A stretch of 64,000 nucleotides of DNA, taken from assembly GCA_963924565.1 (NCBI GenBank), contig OZ004612.1:9548001-9612000 (forward strand). Reading direction: 5' to 3'. Below the pieces are notes generated by a model, which was not told where the DNA came from, made no database searches, and saw only the letters and a program-made list of their open reading frames with translations. Of this stretch, positions 298 to 49,550 are shown piece after piece (within the stretch, counting starts at the first letter, position 1; each line of letters starts with the position of its first letter). The translations under genes and the position numbers were made by a program. This stretch comes from Ascidiella aspersa. Lineage: Eukaryota.

Positions 298-3200
298 CTG
301 GCTAATGAAAGCGCGGAGGTCGCCGGTTGCTATGTGAACTTTAGCGGTGGCGCCCCTGAGCTCCTTCCGGCCTGTGTCGCTCACTGTTGCTAGGCGACTG
401 TTGATGCTGGTGAAGAACGAGTTCAAAACCTGTAATCAACATTTTAATAGGATAGTTGTTATTATGACTATAATGACCGGTTCGCGTTGAAAAAGTTTGT
501 ACCTTGAGGATAATGTTGATATGATTGTGCGCCCCACATAAGTGGGAGATTTTGACCAAACACTATTTTAAACAGAGCTTGACATTTTTTTTTTCAACAT
601 ATGTAGTTTCGATTTTCAGAATTTCTAAAGTATGACCCAAACCAAAAAAATGAAAAAAACGATACCGCTTTAATTGTACTTAAAATACAAAACACACTTA
701 CAATATGTGATACTTAAAAAGGATGAAAAACAATTATGGCACGCAAATTCAAAAAAGTTGTTTTGAGGTATGGTTGTTAAAACTATTCTGCAAGTTAACA
801 ACACACAAGCGTTTTAAAATGTTTGTACTCGATTTGACGTTAATTATCGTATGTGTATTCAGATTAGTTTGTTCTGCCCCATTATCAATAATAATGAAGA
901 CCATTTAACTTGCTATCACATTTCTATTTTCTATAAAAACGGTAACATCTACTCTCGTTTATAACTCAACAACAAAGCACCTGTCCCCTTGACTTGGCGA
1001 TGGCCCGGAGTGTGTCCAGCGAGAGGACGTTGGTGGTTCCCTCCCAGATGCTGAGCACCTGAGCATCCCGGAGGAAGGTCGGGAGTCCCGTGTCCTCCAG
1101 GTATCCGGCTCCTCCAAAGCTCTCCAGACCCTCGGATGCCATGGCAACGGCCTGGAAACGCAAAGAAGAAGAACAACAACAATGATTATCAATCAGTATT
1201 CTTTTTTTTAATTTATATTTTGCCTATACCTGCATCGCCAGTTCCTTATTCAAATAGAATGAATAAGGAACTGAAGATGCCGGTATAGGCGAAATATATA
1301 TTCCTTTCTGTTTTTTTTTTAACTTTGGGTTTTATTAGATAGAAATCGCTCTTCTGGTGTAAACGAAGTATAAACCGACGTTTCGGCGATTTCTATCTAT
1401 TGATATGTTGCCTGGTGGAGCTAATTCCATTTTGGGATTTATTGTTTAATAATGTGTCAGCGAAACAATGATCGAAGAAACCTGCTGCCAATGGTATTGG
1501 ATCAAATAAAGATACGCCTTTTTTATTTGCTAAAAGTGATGTCTTTAAATGTGAATATTGTAAACTTAATTTTACCGTTGGCCCTGAATAATATTTAGAT
1601 AAAAAATCATAAACGGGAAGCCTTTAGGATAAACCCTAAACAAGTTTCTGTTATAAAAACTATCCGTAGCTTGAAACGAGCAAATCCAAAAAAAAATAGC
1701 CAAAACACTGGCTTTTTAACATTTTGCGCTCTGTTTTTGTAGTCACAAAACCATTTTTACTTCATGGTTAAAAAGCGAACTCTACGCTATATGATATAAG
1801 ATAAAATGCAACCGCAAAATTTTGACAAAACACTTTTTGTCAATATGTGCCGTTTAGTCAACAATAACAACCGTGTGGTATATTTTATGGGTGAATGCCA
1901 GGAGGATTAAAGGTTTCGGAGTAATTTATACCTTTAGGATAAGTATGTGAATTTTCATAAAACATTAGACTAACCATGGCAAATTATTACTTAATGCTTA
2001 AAATATTGCAAAATGGTGAAATTGTAACCCTACAACGGGCACAAAAGCCCCAATGCTTAATTTTTACTCTTGCGCAAAACAAAAACACGGACAAAAACTT
2101 AAAATCAAAGCCCTGACCTGTTTAGCTGTGTAAAGTTTGCAGATGGGCGTCATAAGTCGTAAAAGGTCGTTGGTCTCATCCGACGCGCCGTCCGGCGACG
2201 CTTCACTGATTCCGAGAAGTCGAACGACCTCGAAAACCATCAGAAAAGCAGCACGACTTTCGACGTCGATGCTGTAAAAAGAAAAGAGGCATAAAACTTT
2301 GTGCGGCACGTCTATGATCAAACCTTACGTTTTACAATACCAAATCAGCAATGCGCCAATCAGATTTTATATAGTTTGTACTACTAAGTGGTGATAGTCT
2401 GCTTTTTAACCAAAACTTTCTTAAAAAATTACAAGGAAACTATATAAAAGCATAAATTCCGTGTCAAGTAAGCAAATTTTACGTTACTTTGTGAATTGCT
2501 GCAGCGATACTTTGTGCAACGGTACAAATTTAGTATCTTTAAGGGGGCTTATAGCACAGGACCGCTGGTAAAACGAAGGCGGTAATAAGAAAGAATTAAG
2601 ACTTGATCAGTCTAATTTTAACAATACTTAAAATAGGTAACACGTTGATTGTGGGAGAGGCATTCCAGCATTTCTGGCGTTAAAAAATGTACTTTTGACG
2701 GCCGCTCCAAATTCAAAAAGGTATTTAACACTGCTAAAATTTCCACACAACCTTCAGAACAGAAATCCGACGCAATAGCAAGCAAAACTACGGCCCAAAA
2801 CGAGGAACAACAGCAGCACTCAGACTCACCGCGCCAGCGTCTGCACGTGCAGCGGATGATCCTTGAGGTAGGACCCGAAAGCCTTCCGCTTCGTGGCGTA
2901 GTCCCTGGAGAGCAGGAGCAGGCGGCGCATGTTGGCGGCCGACCAGACCGAGTTGTGGATTCGCGTTAAGGTCAGCATGCCTGAGATCTGCTTGACACCG
3001 GCCGACGACTGCCCGATCTGGTAGGATAGAGCGAATACACTTTTATAGGATTTGGCTTTGGGGTTTTTGTTTTGTGAGAGGATCTTTTCGCGTTTTGGGC
3101 ATTTGACACTATGCAGGAGGTAATATTCTCCAGAGATACTGGAACCTAGTTTAAAGTATTGCACATTTACGTTAAGTAGCCTTATTTCAATCATGGGTTT

Positions 3201-6200
3201 AGGCCTTTGCGAGAGTCCTAAATATGCTTTGGGGCATAATAGTTGGAGGTTTTAACTAGACGTAGTAAGAATATCAAAGCCCATACAGTTGCATTTTGAA
3301 CGTTTCGAATATCTCTTTTTTAATATCAACGCTATACCTACTTCTGTATGGGCTCTCAATTGTTACTACGTCATAAATATATATTTCAGTATTATTTTTA
3401 TCTGGTTAAAAAACGGAAATTAAATCATGTTTAGCGACTATAGGGTCGTCAAAGTTGGCAAGCGGGTCTGCAGTACCCGGTTCCAAACATGCAAATATGT
3501 ATTCAGGGTCGACACAAAATGGTCGTCCAGTCGGCAAAACAGGTCCCAATCCCAGGTGTAAAACACTATCCCCGAACGCACACAAATAAAATCCAACTCC
3601 TAACTTACAAGGTGCGCCTTTGTGCCTTGTAGCAGCAATTCTCCGGTTGGAAGCTGCCGGGTTCCCAACTTGTCCTTAAGCCGTTGCACCTGGAGCCCGT
3701 TGAGCCCCGACGCCGGGTCACGGCAGCTGGGGTCGCGCGTCTCCAGGTAGAAGAGGGAAAGTCCCTTGGACCCCGGCGGGACGTTGCCCCTGGCAACGAA
3801 AGGTTGTCAATTGTTTAAAGACATGTTAAATCAGTGTTTCTGTTCAGACCGTTAAAAGTCTTGATTTTTTTGAAAACGTTAACATCTCGATTTTCAGTTG
3901 GGCGCCAAATCTTTGTTTTTGCGAATTTGACAATTTCCTTCGGTGGAAGTGCTTATATGTTGCCTGTGTAAGTCTATAGACGAAACGACATCAGAATTCG
4001 GCCAGCAACAAAAAAGTTATTTTTTTGCAGGTTTTGCAAAAAAATAACTTTTTGTTTCTGGCCGAATTTTGATGTTGAACGAATTTTTTTTTTCTGGCCG
4101 AATTTTGATGGTTAAGAATCTTAACCTCTAGATCGCGACCCGAGATTTGCTCACCGTTTGATTTGGTTAGGCCGCCTACTGCAGTAGTGCACATGGTTAG
4201 ATGGATTGAATTTGGTTGTGAGCAAGATTTCTCAATAATTTGAAAAAAAAAATGTCATGGTGTTTATTCACTTTAAGCTTACAAAAAGTTCAGTGGAGAG
4301 AATCGAGTCGCCAAAGTGTCACTTTTCAATATACGGCCGAGATGTTGGGTCGACCAAAAAAAGGCTGAGAAACACTACGCAAGTAAAGATAACTTAATGC
4401 AATGATTTTCAACCTTTAACACCGTTCGCACTTTTGTATTTCGCAAAATTTTCATCCGCGCGAAACAAGAATTAGTAAGTTTGCAACCTTTAATTTTCCC
4501 TATTTGTGAAATAACAATGAAAGGATTTGTGTATCAAAACCGTGAAGCATAGCTTGAACTGCAATAAACCACATGGAGACTATAATACTGTACCTGTAAC
4601 GAATAAGTGGGCCCACCAGCTTATTAGATTATTGTATTAAAAAAACAATAAACAGTTTTACGACAGTTTTTAAGTTATTGAAACAACCTAAATAAAAACT
4701 GTTATTAATTACTTATACTTTCTGTTTGTAAAAAAAATATCAAAACCCAACATGGCTTACATAACATAAGAGTAACGACGTTAAAAACAACTGCCAGTCA
4801 AACTTACTGTTCGTCGACAATCCGGGCCAGTGTTAGGGCCATGTCGGCGTCGGTAGCCGACGTGAACCACTTGTATCCGTGCAAAGCGTAGCTGCCGTCG
4901 TCTTGTAAGTACGCCAGGGTGTCGGTGCCATTCGCTGAGAAAGGCATCAGGGAAATATTAATTTTGTGATCAAGAAATACAGTAGTTGTTGGTTAGGTGC
5001 ACACAACAATGAGCACCCAGTGGATTTTAAGTTAACTTGGATTAAACTTTTATGTCGTTCCTATTTGTTCCTGGCGCGTTCTTGCTAAAATTTCGGGTTT
5101 AGGTCAAAGTTTGTTTACTCTAAATTGGTTTAAGTTCTGACATGTTACAGCTTTAGGTATGGGAAAAAAATAAATCCCTCTTGAAAAATGGCATGTTTTA
5201 TTATTATGGATTACAAGATTGTCAAAAGCTAGGGCTTTATTTGCATACTTTTTGCTGTACATACACGAAGGAGAAGGCATATTAGGCCTTGTGTCAATAT
5301 TTGTTAAAACTTGGTTTAACATGTTAATCTTTAATAATACGTGTGTAGAAAAAGTTTACACATCAGTAAATTAAACCGTGTTCAGCGGGCCACAGATAAA
5401 ATAGGCGTGGGTTAATACCACCCTGTTATAGACCGTAAAAAACGAAAGAGTTCAAAGAAAAGAAAATTCATTCCTGCTGTACAGTTCGAGCTGGTCACGT
5501 GTTAACAAGTCACCTGTCCAAACATTAGTTTCTTGGCGTCGCCCAAAAACATTTCGGTGCCAGCGGACGACCATGCTTTAAATACCCAGGGGCGGCCAAC
5601 CGTTTAGAAATAAAAAGTCAGGTTTCTTACTTGATTAACCGCAAAGAGACACATAGACAGAAAAAAAACGGTTTCTTACACACATACATTTGCTCACCTG
5701 GATTTAATTAAATTGCGAAACACTAACAGTAATGCGTCGGCTACAGTTAGGTATTTTTCTTACAGTACATGACTTTTCCAATAAATGCCATCGCGGTTTT
5801 TAAGTTTCTAAAATCTGTTGACTTGACTCCACAAAATGGGAAATTATCTGATAAGGGTTGGATCTAGCAATTTTGTTTGATGGACATGGTAAAAACGTGA
5901 TGCCGAAATAAAGTCTCGTGCGCAAATATGCAATGAAAATATGCAAGGGAAATAAACATAAAAACATTCAAGGAAGAAGCGAACAAAAGACGCAAAGAGA
6001 CGCAAGGCGCATTTATGGCGAAGATTTCCTAACGGAGCAAGACATATCGAACAGCTAATCGATTTTTTGCACGTAGGTAGTTCAAATCGCCAAACAATTT
6101 AGCACACGGAAATCGACACTGGACATTCTAAAAAGTTCAAACACAACATGAACGTAAACGCCCCCCTAAAAATGGGCAAAGAGCCGCGGTTTGGCCACAC

Positions 6201-8534
6201 CTGCAATAGCACTTGATCCAGCAAGGAAGGCATAAGAAAGACGCAAAAGTTAGTCGCCTAGCGAATCTCTAATTTTTGGTATGGCAAATATTCTGAAAAG
6301 GAGAACAACATACCTACATCGGACCCTCCAGCCTTCTCTGTCATCCATTGACCCGAAGTCCAAAACTCACGAGGATCTTTACTGGTAAGGCGTCTGAATA
6401 AGAAATCTTTCGTTTGCAAAAAAACTACTTTTTTATGCAGGCTTTCTCTAAGAGAAACTTACGGAGTTTAAGCCCGTTACCGCGACTTATTTAACCACTT
6501 AGCCAAGGTAGATGACATGTGTTGTAATTACTTCAGTCAATGATTGTTTTCAAATGACTTGAATTGACTTGACTTAAGTCTTTTAGTCAAATGACTTCGG
6601 CCAAAACGAAGTATTTTCTTATTATTTTTTTTTATGTTATATTTTTTTTCACGTTTTTTTATTTTTTAGTTCAGGAGTTGTTTATAACCGTAGGAGTTAT
6701 TCTAAAGAAAAATTCTAATAGTTCAACATTTTATTTTTATGACAAGGACATGACTTCAGGTTGACTTGCTCTATGACTTGGGACTTGTTATTTATTCTGT
6801 GTTATTTATTCAAAAAGACTTGACTTGGACTTAAGAGAAAAAACACAACTTTATTTTACAAGTGACTTTTTTCACTTGTGTATTAACCTGGACCATGTTA
6901 AAAAAATGAAGAAAAAATAAAACAGCACAGCTTCAAGATAAATAGAGAGTAATACTAAAAATAGATTTTTTTTTCATATGGATTTTAGTTACAAACAACT
7001 TACATACCGAAGAGCTGTATCCATCATTTCTTTGTTATTCGAGCATCCACTGGAAAGATCGCTCTCTATGACTTTAGCAGCGCCATCCACCATGGCAAGT
7101 GGACAAGTGTACATTCCTGAAGATGGGGCAAATATGTACAACTTGGCCATCTGAAAGATCCGACTATGTGAAACAAAAAGAAAATTTATTAGGCACCCAA
7201 TTACTTGTTGTTAGTTAGGCCATATTTTTAAACATAAAAAACGACAGTTTCGACATAAAAAGTAAAACTTGGCAAATTGTAACCTTAAAATTTTTTATGA
7301 CAAATGTAGCAGGGTTTAATTTGAAAGATTTACTAAAATTTTGCATTTTAATTTTAGATGAATTTAAATTATAACAATAAACTATTTAATAAACAATTTA
7401 AAATTTTCAAATAGAACACCTTGTAACTGTTTTTATGACAAACATGAATTTTTACATAGTTTTAATTACAATAAATCGTCACACACAAAAAGATTATTAC
7501 ATTATTTCATTGCATAAAATTTGTGTTTTTTTAATTTATTAATCCAGAAAGGATCAGTATTTGAATGTGCAAAACGAAGCCTAAAAAACTTAACAACAAA
7601 ACTAAACCACAAAAACTGCACCTGAACTCGCTGTACGTCCTGTCATATCCATGTGCAATAATACCCTCAGTGGCTGCTATCGACTTCATGTTGTCCCACT
7701 CTTCACAAGTGTCGACCCTGTCGATTCTGTGACCCCAGGCATCAAATTGGGTGAGGGTTGGGGGCTTTGTCTCACAAAGTCTGCCCATGTCATCAATGTT
7801 GCTCACAATATCATCTCCGAAACGGCAAAGGTCATTTTCGATTTCTTCAAGAAACTGAATGCACAGGGGAAAGTAGATTAATGTGACTATATTAATTACA
7901 ACAAAAGTTTTAACTTTAATTTTGAACTCCACTTTCTTAACTGATTAGTAAGTCAATCCAACACATGTAGCACATAATAGAGCACACAGCTAAACATCTA
8001 CTAAGCAATGGCAAACAATTACAATTTTTGTCACAACAGTTTATCAAACCTAGTAGTTGTAAGTACTCCAATTTAAAATAAATGCTTAAACCAGACATAC
8101 AAACCTTTTGAGGTATGTGACGTCTCAAATAGGCTATAAGGATTGCATCGCTTTTGTAGGGGTTTTGAAGCTGTGGCCTATCTTGGTTGAAAGGGCCACA
8201 TTTAGAATGCTGATAATTCTGACTGTGGCCTACATTGTTCGCACCTGGTAAAACAAATTGTTCACACCTGTTTAATATTGTTAAAATGAAGTTGCAAACG
8301 GGAATTTGACCCCAACAAACCGATCATTAATTTGAAAAAATTACAAATATTTATTTTAATGACAAAGGCCTGTTTAATTTTATTACAAATTGAAATATGT
8401 AACATATTACAGCACAAACCTGAGTTAGAAACATCTTTATTTTGTGTCTCTGCATGATCTCCTAACCTATTTTCGTGCAATGAAAAGCACCGGAATGAAA
8501 TCTGCCGAGCATTTCGAAATATCAACAGGCTCAT
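298..8534 (-). CDS. AidB-like / ACAD11-like acyl-CoA dehydrogenase, 11 exons visible, 3' end beyond the left edge of the window
   Basis: GT-AG exons joined in frame at about 8534-8420, 8244-8105, 7854-7622, 7163-7008, 6393-6314, 4934-4808, 3789-3609, 3018-2830, 2272-2118, 1151-981 and 429-298. AidB-type ACAD motifs present: [79 protein letters not shown]. The Arg/Ser-rich N-terminus ([18 protein letters not shown]) resembles a mitochondrial presequence. Confidence 0.9.
1214..1298. repeat. Near-perfect inverted repeat (about 38-bp arms, 9-nt loop) in an ACAD intron
   Basis: tatattttgcctatacctgcatcgccagttccttattc pairs with gaataaggaactgaagatgccggtataggcgaaatata, with a few mismatches. Confidence 0.85.
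3262..3369. mobile_element. Small palindromic MITE-like element, with a second copy at about 22610-22710
   Basis: Terminal inverted repeats gtagtaagaatatcaaagcccatacag ... ctgtatgggctctcaattgttactac. The same taagaatatcaaagcccatacag...gaacgtttcgaata core recurs at about 22615-22665. Confidence 0.65.
5587..6203. mobile_element. Non-autonomous hAT-like element
   Basis: Ends caggggcggccaacc ... ggtttggccacacctg form a TIR. No clear TSD. Confidence 0.55.
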
Positions 8535-9001: not shown

Positions 9002-9553
9002 TTAGTGATCACCACTTATTGTTGGTCCTGACAAACGAATAATGCAATTTGTAATGTCACAAGCAACTCTGGTCATTCCTACTTCCTTCAGCATTTCAAC
9101 AAGCTGCCTTCGAGTTTTACCTTGCCGCCAAACTAGTAAAGCTTGAGCGCACACCAAATTTCTTTGAGTATCAGGTTGGGTAGCTTCATTGGGAAAACGA
9201 CCTATTTTCTCAAAAATTGCAATCAAATGAGGCTTATTAACATTGGATGCAACTCGATTAATGTCAAAGTCTCCAATTTCTCCATCTAGAGGATTGATTG
9301 GTTGTTGAGGTGTTTCATCTGGAGCCTGATTCTCATCAGCTGGTAATAGTTCCGAGCTTGGAGTGTCATGTTCCGGTTGATATACCAGATTAATTTGCAC
9401 ATTTTCTGATATAGTCCCCACAGGGACTGCTTTATTTTTATTATCTGCATCACCAGTAATTTCCTCTACATTTTCTTCCCTTGTATTTTGAGAAGTGTTA
9501 GATTTTGACCAATTTTTATCTTCTGGTTTTAGTGAATCTTCGTCTTTAGACAT
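9002..9553 (-). CDS. Death-domain adaptor-like protein 2 (183 aa; disordered acidic N-terminus, C-terminal death-fold domain)
   Basis: First ATG at 9553 (the listed ORF starts earlier at a non-ATG codon), with an acceptor ttttaataag at about 9599. The C-terminal ~85 aa follow a death-domain helix pattern: DINRVASNV...CAQALLVWRQ...TRRQLVEMLKEVGMTRVA, compared with the typical DD MLxxW...TxxxLxxxLxxxGxxxVA. Fold assignment is by eye. Confidence 0.6.
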   Translation of the reverse strand: MSKDEDSLKPEDKNWSKSNTSQNTREENVEEITGDADNKNKAVPVGTISENVQINLVYQPEHDTPSSELLPADENQAPDETPQQPINPLDGEIGDFDINRVASNVNKPHLIAIFEKIGRFPNEATQPDTQRNLVCAQALLVWRQGKTRRQLVEMLKEVGMTRVACDITNCIIRLSGPTISGDH

Positions 9554-10590
9554 GCCTGGTGTACCAGTAAAAACATAGGCACAGACGATACAATATAGCT
9601 TATTAAAAAACACAATAAAGAAAATTATGAACAAAAATATTTTTTATGTGGAAACTCATTATTAAAGGTATGTATTTCAAAAACACAAGACAATAGTAGT
9701 CGTTTTTTTAAATAGGCATGATCATGATATTAACAAGAATATTTGCAAATAACAGAATTGTTATAAATGTTACATTCAATAGCAGGCCTAATGTGTTTGT
9801 CAGGGAGCTATGAAATACTTAAACTAAATTTCACTTAAAGAATTACAGGAAAAGTGTATTATTAAATATTAATTATATAATCAAACCATGTAAAATAATT
9901 ATATTGAAGAACAATATGAAATTATTAAAAGACTAAAAAACTTTGCAAAGCATATAACCCTTAGAATGTTAATTAAAATATATGTTACCTTATTGATTTT
10001 GGGAACATACTTATTCAGTTAAAACAGAAGTAACTAAAAATAAGTGCAGTGCTTTTTTATATTATAAACTACAAAAAAACATGTGATTTTTTATTGAACT
10101 CAATGGTTCTAAAACTGGGAACAGCAGACCACTGGTGTTACATTACTTATATATTATATTGGTCATATTAGATTGTCATTAAGTTTTATTGATGAATAAT
10201 TAATCCTTAAAAACTTTTGTAAGTAGTTTGTATGTGTACAGATCTAAAGTCGTTATAATTAATTATTGTACCCTGATTTTCAATTATACTTGTTTTAAAA
10301 ACAGATGTTTAAAGAAAGCAGATTGTGTATACCTACTCAAAAAGTTTGAAAACCACTGTTTGTAGAAGTAGCTAGTAATTTTCCATAAATAACACCCCTC
10401 TGGGTTGCCCAATATTAATGCACATGCCTATGATACACCACGGTTACCAGCACCCAAAATGCTTGTATATATAGATCCATACAATAAAAAGGCGACAGTT
10501 TGCAACAGGATGCTTATTAAACTAAAGTGGCAGAAAAGCATGGCTAAGAAGAGAAGAACAAAAAACAGTTGTAAGAACAATAAAAAACAG

Positions 10591-11112
10591 TCATATGCGA
10601 CTCCCGATCAATTCGTCTACCATGCCAGCTACATCGGTTGTTCTGGCAACATCTGCTGTTCTGCCGGCTTCTTTTACCAAGCTGATAAGGCATTCTACAG
10701 TTCGACGCTCATTTTCACCGACATTTGCCCTCCAGAAGTCAAGCATTTTGGCACAGGCTCGAGGACGGTCTCTTACTTCTTTGCACTGCTCTTTCTGGAC
10801 TTCTGTCAGATTGACTACCGTTAGAAGCTCCTTGTTAAAAGCTTTTGTTGCTTTTGAGGTCACCATGTTAATGTGAAGCTCATCGATTTGACGGCTACTT
10901 GGAAGTTCTGGAAAAGTGTTGCTGGAGGAATCATAATTTTGGTCATTCATAAAAGCCCCTGCCTGGTTATCCCTTCCTACAGCAGAGCCATCAACATGCC
11001 GTATTTCATTCTCTATGGTACTTGTGGTTGACATATCTCCACTTGGTTGGTTGGAAGATAACTCAGTTGAATAATCCCCAGATGGCCTTGTATTGTTATA
11101 AGGGTTGGACAT
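10591..11112 (-). CDS. Death-domain adaptor-like protein 1 (173 aa; RHIM-like motif plus C-terminal death domain)
   Basis: Single coding exon with an acceptor ttttaaatag at about 11147. The C-terminus ACAKMLDFWRANVGENERRTVECLISLVKEAGRTADVA matches DD helices 5-6. The Ser/Thr-rich N-terminus contains IRHVDGSAVGRDN. Architecture parallels the 9002-9553 gene. Confidence 0.65.
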   Translation of the reverse strand: MSNPYNNTRPSGDYSTELSSNQPSGDMSTTSTIENEIRHVDGSAVGRDNQAGAFMNDQNYDSSSNTFPELPSSRQIDELHINMVTSKATKAFNKELLTVVNLTEVQKEQCKEVRDRPRACAKMLDFWRANVGENERRTVECLISLVKEAGRTADVARTTDVAGMVDELIGSRI

Positions 11113-11599
11113 ATTTCTTATTTGTTAAAACGAAAGCATACAAATTCTATTTAAAACAAATAGATGTAGTTATAAGCACGTTAACTATTTTTTTAATCTG
11201 ATAGGCACTGATATTGTATTGCTTGATATAATTTACTTCAAGGAAGGCTTTCTGGACCACTCAGGAAAAGGTCAGATTAACAATTTTTGACATATGTACG
11301 TATTTTTCAGGGTACCGTTCTTATAAACTCGCACAAATTATTATGACGTTAGTATATAAAAAAATGAGGAACCAGATAGAAAATGTTGGATTTCACCATC
11401 ACTTTACCCATATCACGTGATTAAAACCAAGGTATGTGTTTTGAACAAAACAAAAAAAAACTAAATTTAATTGTTTAATTTTAAATAAAATATACCTATT
11501 CTGTAATCTACATTATCATGAGTTGTTTTAGTTTAGTATGAAAAATAGTAAAAATATGCCGAGTCATTATGAAATGGCACAAGTTTTCGCATGTTTACG

Positions 11600-14866: not shown

Positions 14867-15421
<555 letters not shown>

Positions 15422-15752
15422 TTTTTACATTCCGCTATAATAGTAACCTTATACAACACAAACTCTTCACTATATTGTTACAATAACGATTGCATATTAT
15501 TTATTATTATTTGTTTTTTAACTTTTTGAGTTTTTGAAAAAAATGTCTTTTAAGCGATTACAACAACATTGACTTTGGGCAAATGTCACCCATTGCCACA
15601 ATATAATTGTATTTACATGTCACATTATATGCTAAATTACAAAATTTAGGTTAGTTGAGCATTTAACATAATATAGATATAGGCAGCAATTACAGTTTAT
15701 TGCACAGTTTTAGTTAGAAGACTATCAAATAGGATGTTTGTTGGACACTTTG

Positions 15753-16508
15753 TTATATAAGTTTGGTTTTGATTTCACAGAAGTTCCCAGTTACTTTGTC
15801 TCTGTCCGCATTTCCTGGTCTTTGTATTATACCATTCATTGCGATGAACACCCCATTATCAGGAAGAATAGCTAACGCACCAAAGGCAAACCCAATGTTG
15901 AAATCAGCATCTGAATCTTTGAACGTTTCTGGTTTGAAACAACCAGTCAAGACAATTTTCTAAAAAAATGATTTTTTTTATCTCTATAAGACACACAATT
16001 AACTAAATTGAAATATTAAAAGGGATACCTTGTCATGAATGTTAGATTCAAGAAACTTTCCAGTTTCTATCAAAGTGTCAGTGCCATGAGTTACGAGGAT
16101 CTTTCCTGCTTTTGAGCTTAAACATACTTGCAAAATGTCTTTTCTAAACATTGAATATATAAAGTTATGCAAAAACTTTACAAATAAATTTGTCAGCTAC
16201 CGGTCAGCGGATGTGATTTCCTGGGAATCTTTTCTGCATATTGTTTGAAATGCAACATTTGAGGTAATCTTAGCCCGTTTCAATATGCGAATTGATGCGG
16301 CCTCGTCAATTTCAAAAGCAAATCCACCCGTTCTTTTTGGATAGTCCTTGTCTATTGTACCTTTTTCAGAAGATAGTTAGAATACCATAAAAGTTTTATA
16401 GCCTTAACTAAAACGACCAGCGACATTATTAAACGTAATAAACTTGAATGAAGTTTAAAGTTTTGTAAAATTACCTCCAGTTTGCAAAACCAACACGTTG
16501 TCCTCCAT
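15753..16508 (-). CDS. Short-chain (N-terminal catalytic domain only) L-asparaginase-family protein, 171 aa, 4 exons
   Basis: Exons 16508-16475, 16360-16201, 16143-16029, 15959-15753 splice to MEDNVLVLQTGGTIDKDYP...CRKDSQEITSADR...ILVTHGTDTLIETG...IVLTGCFKPETFKDSDADFNIGFA...GVFIAMNG. Both class-1 asparaginase catalytic Thr motifs (TGGTI, HGTDT) are present. Confidence 0.9.
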
Positions 16509-16668: not shown

Positions 16669-28972
<12,304 letters not shown>

Positions 28973-30769: not shown

Positions 30770-31687
30770 TTAAAGGAAATAGGGTGTGGTAGTTCTTGCG
30801 GGAATTACCCTCATATTATCAGGTACAGCTCTGAACAACTTAGGTTCTCTCTCGTCCGGGCTATTAATTGACATAATAGCGGCAATGTTGCCACAGCGAT
30901 AACAGTAATTTGGTGCAGACCACACAGTTACGAGGTTCTCATTAAACATGTACTTGTAGCCGTCGTGTACTACCTGATGGGCTCTGCAAATCAACGACAA
31001 ATTATTAAGGTGAATAAACTCCTGCGTAACTTTGGCCCCGAAAAGCCACCCTGCCCCGCGATTGCTGATGGCCCAAGTGTCCACCTCCTCCGGGTCAGAC
31101 CAGACAAGGTCGCAGAAAGGTCCTTTGTGTGGGATTTCCTGTTGTCTGTCGATGGTCCGAATTTGATCGAGGGTCTTGATATCAGGGGATAGGCCGCCAT
31201 GAACACACAACACCCTAGAATCGATGATGGCGGCGATTGTTAGCAGGTCAAACACTTTGGTGCAGTATCTCCAAGCATTTGCATTGCCGTATTTTGTTTG
31301 GCACTCGTCATAGAATCCGTAAACCTGAGTGATCTGCCTGGTTTCATGGTTTCCTCGCAAAAGTGTAATGCGATTGGGCCACTTTGCCTTCAGAGTAAGT
31401 AGGTATGTGAAGGTTTCCAAACTGTAGTAGCCGCGGTCGACAAAGTCACCCATGAAGATGTAATTTGTCTCAGGAATTTCGCCTCCAGTGCGAAAGAGTT
31501 CCAGAAGGTCGTAAAACTGCCCATGGATGTCGCCACAAACTGTGACTGGTGTCGAAACAGGTTGGACATTTGATTCTTCCAAAAGCAGATCACAAACATA
31601 ATCACATAGTTGCTTCAAATCGTGTTCGGGAAGATATTTGCATTCCCTCGCCATTTCAATCATTTTGTCGATATTTATAGAAATCAT
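30770..31687 (-). CDS. PPP6C: Serine/threonine protein phosphatase 6 catalytic subunit, intronless CDS (305 aa)
   Basis: PPP motifs GDIHGQ, GDFVDRG, RGNHE and [13 protein letters not shown]6-specific [37 protein letters not shown] and C-terminal [13 protein letters not shown]. First ATG at 31687. Confidence 0.97.
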
Positions 31688-33826: not shown

Positions 33827-35725
33827 TTAATCGACCTCCTCGATAACTGGACCCCTTCTCGGCGCATCTTGAGATGTGTTTGGGCCAGACGCACCACCAC
33901 CAGAAGAATAAAGGTTGCTCATCACGTCTTGGCATTTCCTCTGCAGCTCTTTGAAGTGTAACACCAACTCTTCTTTGCTGGCCTGCGAGTTGCCGTCCAG
34001 CCACGTCTGCTCTTCGTCACAAGCTTGGATCACCATGTTCCGATCTTCCTCAGATATCTTGCCTCCGGTGTTGGGATCCTCGACCGCGTTCTTGACGCCG
34101 TATAAGTAGCTCTCCAGCTCGTTTTGCGCCTTGAGCCTTTCCAGCTGCTTTGCGTCGTCATCCTTGTACTTCTCGGCCTCGGCCAGCATTTGCTCGATGT
34201 CGGCCTTGGAAAGCCGGCCCTTGTTGATTGTGATCTGGTTCGACTTGCCCGTGCTCTCGTCCTGCGCCGAAACCTGCAGAATGCCGTTGGCGTCGATATC
34301 GAACGACACCTTGATCTTGGGGACGCCCCTCGGCGCCGGTGGTATGCCGGAAAGGTCGAAATTTCCCAGGATGCTGTTGTCCTTTGTCATCGCCCGCTCG
34401 CCTTCGTACACTTGTATGCGAACGGAAGATTGACGGTCCGAGTAGGTGGTAAATATCTCCGAGACTTTACAAGGAATGCGACTGTTCCTTTCCACCAGCT
34501 TTGTCATCACACCTCCCGAAGTCTCGAGCCCTAGCGAGAGGGGAGCAACATCCATCAGGAGGACGTCAGTGACCTCTGATTTCCCGGTGAGGACAGCGGC
34601 CTGGACAGCCGCGCCGTAAGCAACCGCTTCGTCTGGATTAATTGACTTGTTCAGAGTTTTGCCGTTAAAGAAGTCTTTGAGGATGTTTTGTACGCGCGGG
34701 ATTCTTGTCGATCCTCCAACCAAAACAATCTCATGTATTTCCGACTTGTCCAGTTTGGCATCTCGGAGAGCTTTCCCCACTGGATCCAGGCAGGATCTGA
34801 AAAGATCAGCGCACAGATCCTCGAATCTGGCCTTCGTGATTTTGCTGTAGAAGTCGATTCCCTCAAACAACGACTCCAACTCAATTGCTGCTTCGGCCGA
34901 GGTCGACAAAACCCTCTTCGCTCTTTCGCAGGCCGTTCGAAGTCTTCTGATTGCGCGATTGTTGCTTGAGATGTTCTTTTTGTGCTTGCGCTTAAACTCG
35001 TTCACAAAATGATCCACCATTCGGTTGTCGAAGTCTTCTCCGCCCAAATGTGTGTCTCCCGCTGTTGACAGAACTTCAAAAATTGAGCCTTCGTCAATAA
35101 GCAAGACTGAAACGTCGAAAGTGCCGCCGCCGAGATCAAAAACCAAGATCTTCTGCTCGCCGCTCATTTTTTTGTCGAGTCCGTAAGCCAAGGCCGCCGC
35201 CGTGGGTTCGTTAATGACTCGAAGAACGTTGATTCCAGCGATGGTGCCTGCGTCTTTGGTTGCCTGACGCTGGGAATCGTTGAAGTAAGCAGGAACTGTG
35301 ATCACTGCGTCTTTCACAGGTTCGCCGAGGTAAGCTTCGGAAATTTGCTTCATCTTAGAGAGGACCATGGCGCTGATTTCCTCCGGTGAAAATCTCTTTC
35401 GTTCTCCTTGGTACTCGACCTCCAGGTTAGGCTTTCCAGCATTGTTGATAACCGAAAAGGGCCAATGCTTCTTGTCGCTCTGAACTGTTTCTTCATCAAA
35501 CCGTCTTCCAATCAAGCGTTTAGCGTCGAAAATTGTGTTGTTTGGATTTCTTGCCACCTGGTCTTTAGCGCCGTCTCCAATCAGCCTTTCAGTGTCGTTG
35601 AACGCCACATAACTTGGCGTGGTCCGATTGCCTTGGTCGTTAGCTATGATTTCGACCTTTCCGTGTCGAAACACACCAACACAAGAGTAAGTCGTTCCAA
35701 GATCAATTCCGACTGCTGTTGGCAT
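33827..35725 (-). CDS. HSP70: Inducible cytosolic Hsp70, copy A, intronless
   Basis: [32 protein letters not shown] and C-terminal GPVIEEVD. The IDEGSIFEV insertion is typical of invertebrate inducible Hsp70. True ATG at 35725; the listed ORF starts at an upstream GTG. Confidence 0.98.
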
Positions 35726-35800
35726 CTTGCTATTACTTGTAGCGGCTCTAATCACTTCTTGTTGCTGTTATTGTGATTTTGATGCTGAATGGGCGTTTCG

Positions 35801-40412: not shown

Positions 40413-43400
40413 CTAGCTACCGTTCTTCCTTAGATGCGTCGAAATGTCCTTCATGGTTTCCAGCATCTGTTTCTGCATGGCGACCAGGCTCTCGAGGGAG
40501 TGTGCGATGCGAGTCTGACTCTGGCCGAGCAGTCGCAGGCTTTCGGGCAAGCAGAGCAGCGCGTCAAGCGGCAGATCGATGGGCTCGCTGCCCCAACCGT
40601 TCGTGAGCGGCGGCGACGAGGCTGTTTGTTCTTTGGGCGGCTCTTGCGTTTCTACGGGCTCGTTTTCTTTCCACACGGGTTCGAGTTTAAGCGGCGGTAA
40701 CCGCAGTGGGCTTTTCGCGGCCGGACGAAGCGCCTCGCTTTCGTTCTCATCCTCCGAGAGATATTCGTCCAAGGGCGGGTGACCGTTTGCGAATTCCTTC
40801 TCGTCGTCGTAGAGAATCTCGAGGCGCTGCACCGGGCCGCTATTGGCGGTGGAATTGCGGTTCTGGAGGACCAGGGAAGGCCGGTCCAGGCCCGGGCCGC
40901 CCGACCACTTGTCGATTTCGTCGTAGGCACGCTTTTTGGCCTTGGCCGTGGCGTCGGTGCTGCAGCGGTAGGCCTTCATCATCATAACTTCGACCTTGAG
41001 CAGCTTGGCCACCTCGGGGAAGGTGAGGGGAATGGGCTGTGCGTGAAATAAATATTTATTAGATATGGCATACACCGGTGGTTTCAAACCGTTTGTGGTC
41101 GCGAGCCCTAAGTTTAGTAAAGTATTACACATCAATCAGATTACACTCATATTATATAATTTGGCAAAACGTTCACATTTCTATACAAACTATCAAAATT
41201 TGGCAAAAATGCTTCGATTTACCCCGAAGCAGGCAACAATAATTTGAGTTACCTTTCAAGGTATTTTTTGCTACAAACAAGACTGGTTTTAGTTCAGGCT
41301 GGCACAATCTTGCCAGCCTTCTGGTGACAAGCATTTTTGGCGAAAATTCTTCGGTTTTTGGTCACGCCCCTAAGCTTAAATGATGTGTTCGCCTAAGGAA
41401 TGTATGAACCTTGCCATGTTTTGGCGATATACAAGGCTATTAATAAGTAAACATTAGACAACAAAACGTAGCGCCTAAGGCGCAAAATTTTTTGTGATAT
41501 TAAGTCATTAACAAATACATAAGGGCAAGTGAAGGTACAACCTGGGGCCTGGGGTGCATGTACATGTCTGCTTTTCAGGCAAACTTATGTGAAAACGTGC
41601 TGCTCAAAGCCAGATTGAAAAGCAGGAAAAAATATTCTTTGGATAAATTTTCCAATTATATTGCTCGAAATAATGATATTTATAATAAAATTGAATAGAA
41701 ATTGTCACATTCATAGTGTATCATGCCCCATAGTATGCATATTACCTTTGGGATAGATTTGTTGAAAACAAAGACACATAAACCTAGCAAAACCAGGCTA
41801 AAGAAAATTTTTTGCATTTGCGTAATTAAACAACCAAAAATATACTTCAGGCCCTAGGGGGAAAAGCATAGCCTGGTACATCCTTAATATGCCGATGTGA
41901 ATGTTATACCTGGACATTTAACAGGAATGGGGAATTCAACTCAATATACAGGAAATCAACTCAATATAGAAATACTTGCCAATTTAAAGTATAACTGCCT
42001 ACACATAACAATTGTATGATCAAAAGTGTGTACTTTTTAAATAATAAATAGTCTATATGCCTTGCACTGGCTTTTTCTCACTAAACAACGTGCTTCACAC
42101 TACCGTAACTTTTTTCAAAATGACACAACAAAATTAATTTCTGCTAATTGTAAAATAGATGTGATTAAATATGTGTGGAAACAACCACAAGGTGTTTTGT
42201 AAATTTAATGTTAGAAAAAAAATTTTCACAAAAAATTTTTCGAAAAAAAAAAAATTTCGAAAAATTAAAAAAAAATTTTTTTTTCAAATTTTATTTTTTA
42301 CTTAAAATTTTTTTTGCACCAATTTCTTCGGTTTTCTGGCTGATTCTTCGGCCGACATAGTCGCCAAGTCGCCAGCATTCTGCCATACTATTTTAGTTTA
42401 CATCATTTTTTTTCTCGTCTATTTTTGGTTTAACAAATATACAAAGCGACCCGCCCAGACCTTTTGCCAACCCTAGGTTGGGAACCACTTGGATACATCT
42501 TTAAACCAGGGGTCCTTGAACTTTTAGAAACTGAAATAAAGACTAAATACATTTAAGAATAAGTCATCAAGAAGCATTTTTTCAGTTAAATTATTTTCAC
42601 TTTAATTTTTTAAACTATACACCAAGGTTTCTAATTGGGTTGGTATGAACCCCCTAAAGCTAGTACATATACCCCCCAGGGGGCCACAGATCCCAGTTTA
42701 AGAGCCCCTGATTTAAACACTGCTACAAAGTGTACAAGAATCTATATCTTAACAACTGTACTTCATGGTAGAGAGTATACATTCAGTTTTCAACATCCTT
42801 ACAGCTAAATAAAGGTAAGTTGATCTTTTAATAGTTAAGCTAACACAGTTTTGTTTTAATCAAAGCAATCAAGTTACAAAATGACAGGCAGCAAGAATAT
42901 TGATGGGTTTAAAATGACCAATCTAGACATACGTAACTGTGCTGGTTACAAATCCAGAGAGCTTATAAATAAATATGGCTGAGCAATAAACAAGATAAAT
43001 CAATACTGCACAGTCAATCGCCATGAATTTTGAGTAAAGTGGATTTGTATATTAAAGCTTATCTTATCTGTTTAAGGGTTCAGAATGCATTAGTTTGATG
43101 TTACATCCATATATATTGTATCATTTGAGTTTTGATACGCAATTGTCGACACCGAAAGTAATGCAAATCACAATCCACTTAAATTGCCACTAATTTAATA
43201 AGTGCGTACAAAAGCCATTTAACAAACACAACACGTTGATCTTAATGAAAGCTGCTGGTATGTAAAGCATGTGAATTGTATTTTCCTAATGCCATTATAA
43301 AAAACAAGGGTGCAAGTAAAACACATTAATTAGCATTACACCTTCAGGTGGATTAACACTAAAATATTACCTCCTTTCTATTTTGTTCAGGGCTACCGAT

Positions 43401-47530: not shown

Positions 47531-47654
47531 ATCGCGCTACAGAACGAACAGCACACAACTCAAAGAGTTTAACCACGAACAGAAACGAAGTTCGAAGAAT
47601 AGCTAGACGCAATTTATACTATTTGAAAGAGTTATTACTGAAGAAAGAAAGAAA

Positions 47655-49550
47655 ATGTCAACTGCAGTCGGAATTGATCTCGGAACGACCTATTCTTGTG
47701 TCGGTGTGTTTCGACACGGAAAGGTCGAAATCATAGCTAACGACCAAGGCAATCGGACCACGCCAAGTTATGTGGCGTTCAACGATACTGAAAGGCTGAT
47801 TGGAGACGGCGCTAAAGACCAGGTGGCAAGAAATCCTAACAACACAATTTTCGACGCTAAACGCTTGATTGGAAGACGGTTAGACGAAGAAACAGTTCAG
47901 AGCGACAAGAAGCATTGGCCCTTTTCGGTGATCAACAATGCGGGAAAGCCTAACCTGGAGGTCGAGTACCAAGGAGAAAGAAAGAGATTTTCACCGGAGG
48001 AAATCAGCGCCATGGTCCTCTCTAAGATGAAGCAAATTTCCGAAGCTTACCTCGGCGAACCTGTGAAAGACGCAGTGATCACAGTTCCAGCTTACTTCAA
48101 CGATTCCCAGCGTCAGGCAACCAAAGACGCAGGCACCATCGCTGGAATCAACGTTCTTCGAGTCATCAACGAACCAACGGCGGCAGCCTTGGCTTACGGA
48201 CTCGACAAAAAGATGAACGGCGAGCAGAAGATCTTGGTTTTTGATCTCGGCGGCGGCACTTTTGACGTTTCAGTCTTGCTCATCGACGAAGGCTCAATTT
48301 TCGAAGTTCTGTCAACAGCGGGAGACACTCATTTGGGCGGAGAAGACTTCGACAACCGAATGGTGGACCATTTCGTAAAAGAGTTTAAGCGCAAGCACAA
48401 CAAGGATATTTCGAAAAGCAATCGCGCGATCAGAAGACTGCGAACCGCCTGCGAAAGAGCTAAGAGGGTTTTGTCGACCTCGACCGAAGCAGCAATTGAG
48501 TTAGAGTCGTTGTTTGAGGGAATCGACTTCTACAGCAAAATCTCGAGAGCCAGATTCGAGGAGCTGTGCGCTGATCTCTTCAGATCCTGCCTCGAACCGG
48601 TGGAGAAAGCGCTCCGTGATGCCAAGCTCAACAAGTCCAATATAGACGAGATCGTTTTGGTTGGAGGATCGACAAGAATCCCACGCGTACAAAAAATCCT
48701 CAGCGATTTCTTCAACGGCAAAGGCTTGAACAAGTCGATTAATCCGGACGAAGCGGTTGCGTACGGTGCAGCTGTCCAGGCCGCCGTCCTTACAGGAAGC
48801 TCTGACGTCAAAGACGTGCTCTTGGTAGATGTTGCCCCCCTCTCGCTCGGGATCGAGACCTCGGGAAGCGTTATGACAAAGCTGGTGGAGAGAAACACTC
48901 GCATCCCTTGCAAGACTTCAGAGACGTTTACGACCTACGCCGACAACCAGCCAGCCGTCACAATCCAGGTCTACGAAGGCGAGCGGGCGCTTACGAAGGA
49001 CAACAACATACTCGGAACCTTCAACCTGACCGGCATACCACCGGCGCCGAGGGGCGTCCCCAAGATCAAGGTGTCGTTCGATATCGACGCCAACGGTATC
49101 CTGCAAGTGTCGGCGCAGGACGAGAGCACTGGCAAGTCGAACCAGATCACAATCAACAAGGGTCGCCTTTCCAAGGCCGACATCGAGCGAATGCTGGCCG
49201 AAGCCGAGAAATACAAGGATGACGACGCAAAGCAGCTGGAAAGGTTCAAGGCGCGAAACGATCTGGAGAGCTACTTATACGGCGTCAAGAACGCGGTCGA
49301 GGATCCCAACACCGGAAGCAAGATATCGGAGGAAGACAAAACGAAAGTCTTAGCGGCGTGCGCTGAAGAGCAGAAGTGGCTGGACGGCAACTCGTTGGCT
49401 GACAAGGAAGAGTTTGCGTACCACCTCAAAGAGCTGCAGAAGAGGTGCCAGCCTGTGATGAGCAACCTCCATTCTGCTGGTGGTGCCGCATCTGGCCCTA
49501 AGCAAGCACAAGGATCAGACAACGGTCCAGTAATCGATGAGGTGGATTAG
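47655..49550 (+). CDS. HSP70: Inducible cytosolic Hsp70, copy B, intronless
   Basis: All three Hsp70 signatures, [10 protein letters not shown]-terminal GPVIDEVD; paralogue of copy A. Confidence 0.98.

What the first reader, a model, noticed from the sequence alone, without database searches (positions are those of the whole stretch)
15753..16508. Intron-containing animal gene for a bacterial-style short-chain single-domain asparaginase
Seen: a complete 171-aa protein with TGGTIDKDY and HGTDT, ending soon after GVFIAMNG. It lacks the C-terminal asparaginase domain and ankyrin repeats. Three GT-AG introns (one only 57 nt) show it is integrated, not contamination. The ORF track shows only its last exon. 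Known: the familiar animal class-1 enzyme (ASPG) is much longer, with a second domain plus ankyrins, whereas ~170-aa enzymes with TGGTIDK are the short-chain type exemplified by Rhodospirillum rubrum asparaginase. Inference: horizontally acquired, or a patchily retained and poorly described animal enzyme family.
Basis: partly seen in the sequence, partly recalled or inferred. Interest (0 to 1): 0.7.

Follow-up and report, generated by a model that had tools for sequence, protein, structure and literature searches.

The report
Arginine-type short asparaginase of invertebrates
This is a real, spliced and transcribed gene, likely of a sea squirt, for a 171-residue single-domain relative of bacterial asparaginase that is likely an old inheritance shared with many invertebrates, and it carries arginine where the only studied family member needs a lysine, so it likely breaks down asparagine or a modified form of it by slightly different chemistry.

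Summary
In detail: four exons (minus strand, 16508-15753) give a 171-aa protein; introns 2 and 3 are spliced out in a public contig, intron 2 also in RNA reads, and the transcript runs through the stop, so no C-terminal domain follows. It is a short-chain class-1 asparaginase (RrA family). Recent horizontal transfer is unlikely: relatives occur in sponges, molluscs, a flatworm, crustaceans, echinoderms, amphioxus, a choanoflagellate and algae; the protein scores as animal-type; intron 1 seems shared with starfish and molluscs. The tree alone cannot reject a bacterial sister. The host is likely an ascidian. This scan reported the family before in a sea urchin, and the RrA paper announces eukaryotic members. 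New here: RrA's essential Lys158 is Arg in this protein and in 30 of 30 named animal homologues, while seven other active-site residues are kept; no Arg row was seen in the parts of the published alignment read. In prokaryotes 23 of 62 Arg-type genes lie directly before a beta-hydroxyaspartate-dehydratase/serine-racemase-like gene or RidA (0 of 74 Lys-type; not independent). That suggests, untested, a route for beta-hydroxyasparagine, which mammals excrete.

The parts
16475..16508 (-). Coding exon 1 (ATG at 16508; residues 1-11 and first base of Gly12); no signal-peptide-like stretch
   Evidence: RNA depth 0.7
16361..16474 (-). Intron 1, 114 nt, GT..AG, phase 1, inside the TGGT motif; position likely shared with starfish and mollusc genes
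   Evidence: zero RNA depth; gene-model breakpoints (indirect)
16201..16360 (-). Coding exon 2: Thr13 (16358-16356; RrA Thr16, nucleophile), Lys16 (RrA Lys19), Tyr18 (RrA Tyr21), the YP-x3-G-F-A-F-E loop, Asp56-Ser57
16144..16200 (-). Intron 2, 57 nt, GT..AG, phase 2
   Evidence: spliced out in X3 contig and 2 X4 RNA reads
16029..16143 (-). Coding exon 3: HGTDT with Thr86 (16082-16080) and Asp87 (RrA Thr87, Asp88)
15960..16028 (-). Intron 3, 69 nt, GT..AG, phase 0
   Evidence: spliced out in X3 contig
15753..15959 (-). Coding exon 4 to TAA: GVFIAMNG and Arg156 (AGA, 15803-15801) at the place of RrA's catalytic Lys158
   Evidence: gap-free alignment; the K158M chain 8upc marks the column
15652..15752 (-). 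3' untranslated region with AATAAA at 15701-15696; overlaps the 3' end of the ADAT2-like transcript
14873..15421 (+). Neighbour, not part of the gene: ADAT2-like tRNA deaminase, tail to tail; used to place the host
16669..16791 (+). Neighbour, not part of the gene: first coding exon of a likely ankyrin-repeat gene, head to head, 160 nt between the two ATGs
   Evidence: (frame), X3 contig leaves at 16791; Pfam ankyrin hit on a later ORF at 20447-20794; that both belong to one gene is inferred

Best explanation
The gene is spliced and transcribed and encodes a 171-residue single-domain class-1 asparaginase of the short-chain (RrA) family in which RrA's catalytic Lys158 is an arginine; it is likely an active cytosolic amidohydrolase for free asparagine or a close analogue, likely inherited vertically from early animals. 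Shown: gene structure, family, conservation of Thr13, Lys16, Tyr18, Asp56, Ser57, Thr86, Asp87, and Arg156. Inferred by analogy with RrA: four chains assemble so that Tyr18 of one completes the site of another; Thr13 attacks the side-chain amide, releasing ammonia; water hydrolyses the acyl-enzyme. Inferred from the substitution: Arg156 would keep the charge that orients Thr86/Asp87 but is a poor base, so proton transfer would rest more on the family-specific Lys16-Tyr18 pair; the longer YP-x3-G-aromatic-A-F-E loop that travels with the Arg likely reshapes the pocket. My odds for the main substrate: L-Asn 0.45, beta-hydroxy-Asn or another modified Asn 0.25, something else 0.15, no catalysis 0.15.
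For: Best PDB matches are the RrA chains (phmmer E 4.6e-15; animal profile E 2.6e-37 against 3e-19 for the best long enzyme; model of the sponge homologue TM 0.84 to 8uoo). 30 of 30 named animal domains keep T-K-Y-D-S-T-D and have Arg. Of 410 retrieved domains 321 have Arg, 73 Lys, 16 other or gap; among Arg rows P19 319/322, F27 318/322, E28 311/322 (pool biased towards animal-like hits). Vertical descent: named homologues in Oscarella, Corticium, Lingula, Lineus, Owenia, many molluscs, Fasciolopsis, Penaeus, Oratosquilla, echinoderms, hemichordates, Branchiostoma, a choanoflagellate and algae; the window protein scores +32.5 bits for an animal over a prokaryote profile, left-out animals +7.5 to +51.6 (30 of 30), left-out prokaryotes -17 to -73 (78 of 78); careful tree puts it in a 32-row clade of 26 animal, 5 other eukaryote-like and 1 unnamed rows (bootstrap 90, SH 96); Asterias, Pinctada and Batillaria gene models break at the same G|GTIDK point as intron 1. 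Coding exons free of the 16 haplotype differences.
Against: No activity has been measured for any Arg-type protein. K158M abolishes RrA activity (PMC10949315 section 2.9). RrA Asn26 has no fixed counterpart. AU test does not reject grouping the window protein with its four closest prokaryote-like hits (p 0.24), nor animal monophyly (p 0.39); a quick tree with more rows let 3 Bacteroidota and 3 unnamed rows into the animal-choanoflagellate group. Highest raw identity (57%) is to unnamed prokaryote-like proteins. No named tunicate homologue was among the listed hits (best 120 of 603 and 120 of 7998). The shared intron rests on protein gene models, not on DNA. Expression seen is low (14 reads in about 6% of one run).
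Confidence: 0.7

Rival explanations
1. Arg-type enzymes are specialised for beta-hydroxyasparagine: they release ammonia to give beta-hydroxyaspartate, which a serine-racemase-family dehydratase turns into iminosuccinate and RidA or water into oxaloacetate. In animals the substrate would come from turnover of Asn-hydroxylated proteins.
For: Next gene on the same strand in Arg-type prokaryotic loci is a serine-racemase-family PLP enzyme in 15 of 62 and RidA in 10 of 62 (either: 23 of 62), against 0 of 74 Lys-type loci. All 9 such enzymes scanned score best to BhcB beta-hydroxyaspartate dehydratase (404-444 bits), then threo-3-hydroxyaspartate ammonia-lyase. The neighbour trait needs 9 changes on the tree. 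One acidobacterium holds both an Arg-type and a Lys-type gene. The host encodes an intact serine-racemase-like protein (46% identity). Humans and rats excrete endogenous beta-hydroxy-Asn in urine (PMC8071972), and no vertebrate name was among the listed homologues.
Against: Scores lie below the curated cut-offs (550 and 452) and the best solved relatives are serine racemases. Independent-pairs test is uninformative (1 pair on starred branches). 39 of 62 Arg loci have neither neighbour within the flank. A Lys-type protein is fused to RidA (P0305). Ordinary E. coli AnsA already hydrolyses beta-hydroxy-Asn, so Arg is not needed for it. A generic amino-acid deamination cluster explains the neighbours too. 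Vertebrate absence was not tested.
Confidence: 0.25
2. The gene entered this tunicate lineage separately from a bacterium and gained its introns afterwards.
For: Top identities are to prokaryote-like proteins; AU test does not reject it; no named tunicate hit listed; it does not group with amphioxus.
Against: Animal-type profile score and diagnostic residues, placement among animals in all four trees, likely shared intron 1; tunicate proteins evolve fast (recalled), which explains the long branch.
Confidence: 0.08
3. The Arg type is a slow or inactive enzyme that binds Asn/Asp as a sensor or regulatory module.
For: The essential Lys is replaced; eukaryotic relatives are fused to signalling-type domains, a dual-specificity-phosphatase-like domain in 8 of 38 long hits scanned.
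Against: Nucleophile and all other catalytic residues are invariant in 30 of 30 animals; bacterial Arg-type genes sit with catabolic enzymes; many single fusions are likely gene-model read-throughs.
Confidence: 0.12

Closest known systems
RrA of Rhodospirillum rubrum and the short-chain L-asparaginases (scASNases, class 1 type s; PMC10949315, PMC12951835; PDB 8uoo)
   Same: 160-185 aa, N-terminal asparaginase domain only, GGTIDK with the family-specific Lys, Tyr, DS, HGTDT; same fold for the animal homologue (TM 0.84); no leader peptide
   Different: Arg in place of the essential Lys158; longer YP-x3-G-aromatic-A-F-E loop and no fixed Asn26; animal host, three introns; activity and tetramer untested
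Typical class 1 asparaginases (E. coli AnsA/AnsB, archaeal type I) and animal ASPG
   Same: Homologous catalytic domain with the two threonines and aspartate
   Different: No C-terminal domain and no ankyrins; far below NCBIfam cut-offs; that animal ASPG has a second domain and ankyrins is recalled, not tested
beta-Hydroxyaspartate pathway enzymes (BhcB; threo-3-hydroxyaspartate ammonia-lyase) and RidA
   Same: Relatives of these genes directly follow Arg-type asparaginase genes in Bacteroidota and Planctomycetota
   Different: Neighbours score below the family cut-offs; no such linkage exists at the animal locus; the substrate link is inference

Membership tests
short-chain L-asparaginase (scASNase, class 1 type s) | 160-185 residues, no C-terminal domain | tested here: met
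   171 aa; transcript runs through the stop
short-chain L-asparaginase (scASNase, class 1 type s) | Closer in sequence and fold to RrA than to long class 1 enzymes | tested here: met
   fold tested on the sponge homologue P0004, not on the window protein
short-chain L-asparaginase (scASNase, class 1 type s) | Thr16, Lys19, Tyr21, Asp57, Ser58, Thr87, Asp88 of RrA | tested here: met
   Thr13, Lys16, Tyr18, Asp56, Ser57, Thr86, Asp87
short-chain L-asparaginase (scASNase, class 1 type s) | Catalytic Lys158 (essential in RrA; called only moderately conserved by the authors) | tested here: not met
   Arg156; hence filed as a variant subfamily, not a typical member
short-chain L-asparaginase (scASNase, class 1 type s) | Asn26 from the neighbouring chain | tested here: not met
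   variable column (Gly here) in a longer loop
short-chain L-asparaginase (scASNase, class 1 type s) | Homotetramer with swapped active-site loops | not tested
short-chain L-asparaginase (scASNase, class 1 type s) | Hydrolyses L-Asn with millimolar Km, little glutaminase | not testable with these tools
   needs an assay
short-chain L-asparaginase (scASNase, class 1 type s) | Cytoplasmic, no leader peptide | tested here: met
   by inspection only: the domain starts at residue 4; no signal-peptide program was run
long class 1 asparaginase / ASPG | C-terminal asparaginase domain (PF17763), ankyrins in ASPG | tested here: not met
recent horizontally acquired gene | Narrow host range and nesting among bacteria | tested here: not met
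   range broad; nesting not favoured but not rejected

The most novel reading that the evidence does not exclude
Invertebrates and protists carry an undescribed Arg-type asparaginase subfamily that is the missing first enzyme for breaking down beta-hydroxyasparagine released from hydroxylated proteins, feeding a serine-racemase-like dehydratase; vertebrates lost it and excrete the compound instead. It would also be a class-1 asparaginase working without the canonical catalytic lysine.
Probability: 0.2. Interest if true: 0.8.

Novelty: new variant of a known kind. Interest (0 to 1): 0.52.

Why it matters
Short-chain asparaginases are known from one bacterial enzyme. The animal members form a subfamily that has swapped a residue shown to be essential, which makes a clean test of the class-1 mechanism (wild type against R156K, R156M, K16A). 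Gene neighbours in bacteria give a concrete substrate to try, beta-hydroxyasparagine, a urinary metabolite whose origin the cited paper calls unknown. A small, eukaryote-made asparaginase is also of some interest for therapy and food uses if it is active. The bare fact of animal members is less surprising: it is announced in print and was found before in this scan.

Tried and rejected
Contamination or bacterial contig: rejected (introns spliced, eukaryotic neighbours). Pseudogene or retained-intron reading from the three multiple-of-three introns: rejected (in-frame stops in each; 1-nt indels in another haplotype). Fusion with the adjacent ankyrin gene to give an ASPG-like protein: rejected (upstream, opposite strand). 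Search for a long ASPG-type gene in the host with TIGR00519, PF17763, two motif patterns and E. coli AnsA found nothing, but PF00710 also missed the known gene, so this shows nothing. No RNA holder was listed by the run index; raw reads were laid instead. Exact look-up of four window proteins found none. Atlas search with the Lingula homologue gave only bacterial asparaginase clusters. Independent-pairs test of Arg against neighbours: uninformative. Earlier-findings searches by sequence, place and other words: nothing. Paper searches for a Lys-to-Arg variant, eukaryotic or tunicate short-chain enzymes and a hydroxyasparagine-degrading asparaginase found no such report in the held library; supplements 1 and 3 and parts 2-4 of supplement 2 of PMC10949315 were not read and could mention Arg variants.

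Full report
Observation. The gene is on the minus strand. Enumerating GT/AG pairs around the three gaps gave one model that keeps all motifs in frame: exons 16508-16475, 16360-16201, 16143-16029 and 15959-15753, introns of 114, 57 and 69 nt, 171 residues. A 585-nt contig of public run X3 skips introns 2 and 3 exactly and runs on through the stop to 15652, 44 nt past an AATAAA; two RNA reads of X4 skip intron 2. No joint was listed for intron 1, but RNA depth is zero inside it and present on both sides. Another haplotype has single-base insertions in introns 2 and 3 and 0 of 16 listed differences in the 516 coding bases of a 1978-base contig (chance about 0.008 if uniform). So the gene is real, transcribed at a low level and single-domain. 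An ADAT2-like gene lies tail to tail and a likely ankyrin gene head to head on the other strand; neither is part of it. The best named ADAT2 hits are Styela, Phallusia and Clavelina, so the host is likely an ascidian.

Family. The best solved relatives are the RrA chains. A profile of 22 animal-type homologues scores RrA at E 2.6e-37 and the best long enzyme at 3e-19; a model of the sponge homologue (pLDDT 85.6) matches 8uoo at TM 0.84. From PMC10949315 (abstract, sections 2.2, 2.7, 2.9, 3, search passages, and parts 1, 5, 6 of 6 of supplement 2): the family is 160-185 aa, cytoplasmic, tetrameric; catalytic residues are Thr16, Tyr21, Thr87, Asp88, Lys158, with Lys19 family-specific; K158M has 0% activity; eukaryotic members are promised for a separate study. 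PMC12951835 (passages) files it as class 1 type s. My searches found no paper on eukaryotic members (listings only).

Origin. Named homologues occur in sponges, a brachiopod, a nemertean, an annelid, molluscs, a trematode, crustaceans, echinoderms, hemichordates and amphioxus, 158-198 aa for the 30 named animal domains analysed, and in a choanoflagellate, chlorarachniophytes, stramenopiles and a haptophyte. No vertebrate, insect or other tunicate name was among the listed hits, but only the best 120 of 603 and 120 of 7998 were shown and most rows have no name, so absence is not shown. Raw identity is highest to unnamed prokaryote-like proteins (57%), yet the protein scores 32.5 bits better against an animal than a prokaryote profile; 30 of 30 left-out animals were positive and 78 of 78 left-out prokaryotes negative (prokaryote folds were random and kept close kin in training). 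In the careful tree of 82 chosen rows it falls in a 32-row clade of 26 animal, 5 other eukaryote-like and 1 unnamed rows (90/96). The data are weak: neither grouping with four prokaryote-like hits (p 0.24, 19.7 log units worse) nor animal monophyly (p 0.39, 5.6 worse) is rejected, and a quick tree of 76 rows let three Bacteroidota into the group. Gene models of Asterias and Pinctada change sequence exactly before GTIDK and that of Batillaria has an insertion there, the point where intron 1 sits; only 4 of 321 proteins with the motif lack the preceding Gly, two being these animals. That is indirect evidence of a shared intron. Vertical descent within animals is the best reading; an ancient entry from bacteria before that is open.

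In a gap-free stretch RrA Lys158 aligns with Arg156 (the K158M chain marks the column). Of 411 domains kept from 432 proteins (21 dropped as partial; some proteins gave two domains), the 410 other than the window's have Arg 321 times, Lys 73 and other or gap 16 (the pool is biased towards animal-like hits). All 30 named animal and 7 named protist domains have Arg, and all 30 animals keep T-K-Y-D-S-T-D. Arg travels with a longer loop after the Tyr, YP-x3-G-aromatic-A-F-E. In the C-terminal block of the published alignment that I read, every row of the family that reaches this column has Lys. In even samples of two phyla, 92 of 401 and 42 of 301 genomes had a match, and 29 of the best 30 loci in each were Lys-type, the one Arg being the centre genome: the Arg type is rare in prokaryotes and universal in the eukaryotes seen. 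One acidobacterium holds both types, which suggests different jobs. No paper on a Lys-to-Arg variant turned up.

Neighbours in prokaryotes. Among 136 loci typed as Arg or Lys (2 duplicates and 2 with a gap left out), 23 of 62 Arg-type genes are followed on the same strand by a serine-racemase-family PLP enzyme (15) or RidA (10), against 0 of 74 Lys-type. The nine such enzymes scanned score best to BhcB beta-hydroxyaspartate dehydratase and then threo-3-hydroxyaspartate ammonia-lyase, below both cut-offs; their best solved relatives are serine racemases. The loci are kin and the neighbour profiles were built from these loci: the trait needs 9 changes on the tree but the independent-pairs test has no power. 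BhcB acts in the route from beta-hydroxyaspartate to labile iminosuccinate (bioRxiv 10.1101/2022.08.08.503134, passages). Beta-hydroxyasparagine is endogenous in rat and abundant in human urine, of unknown origin, possibly from hydroxylated proteins; E. coli AnsA can hydrolyse it (PMC8071972, passages and section 15). The host has an intact serine-racemase-like gene. This supports a hydroxy-Asn route as a lead, not more; a general amino-acid deamination cluster fits as well.

Mechanism. Shown: residues and gene. Inferred: Thr13 acylation, hydrolysis by water, Tyr18 supplied across a tetramer, Lys16-Tyr18 taking more of the proton transfer while Arg156 supplies charge. Substrate odds: L-Asn 0.45, modified Asn 0.25, other 0.15, none 0.15.

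Verdict. Real gene; known family; old animal inheritance rather than recent transfer; a seemingly undescribed Arg-type variant with a testable substrate. Interest 0.52.

Noticed in passing
proteins P0223, P0230, P0236, P0238, P0258, P0260, P0274, P0283: A dual-specificity-phosphatase-like domain is fused in front of the Arg-type short asparaginase in 8 of 38 long hits scanned, likely marine protists or algae; cluster members confirm two of the fusions. A Myb fusion occurs in Thalassiosira (P0284 cluster).
   Followed up: partly
P0305: RidA fused to a Lys-type short asparaginase.
   Followed up: no
window 14873-15421 and 30770-31687: ADAT2-like and PP6-like (by my reading of the sequence) genes have uninterrupted coding frames; ADAT2 and asparaginase 3' ends overlap near 15652-15678.
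   Followed up: partly
window 33827-35767 and 47607-49550: Two intronless Hsp70 genes, both on the minus strand, about 12 kb apart.
   Followed up: no
window 2826-7944: Exons of an acyl-CoA dehydrogenase with an AidB N-terminal domain.
   Followed up: no
window 9002-11124: Two ORFs whose C-terminal parts look like death domains by eye; Pfam found nothing at E 0.001.
   Followed up: partly
window 27878-28972 and 40413-41135: GC-rich ORFs of 206-354 and 240 aa without Pfam match.
   Followed up: no
G000 whole genome: No long ASPG-type asparaginase was found with five insensitive queries; whether the short enzyme is the host's only class-1 asparaginase is open. At least five intact-looking PLP dehydratase/racemase-family frames were found.
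   Followed up: partly
L021, L042, L054 and other Roseivirga-like loci: Genes with the Arg-type loop but Lys at the catalytic column, followed by a subtilase gene: possible reversals or intermediates.
   Followed up: no
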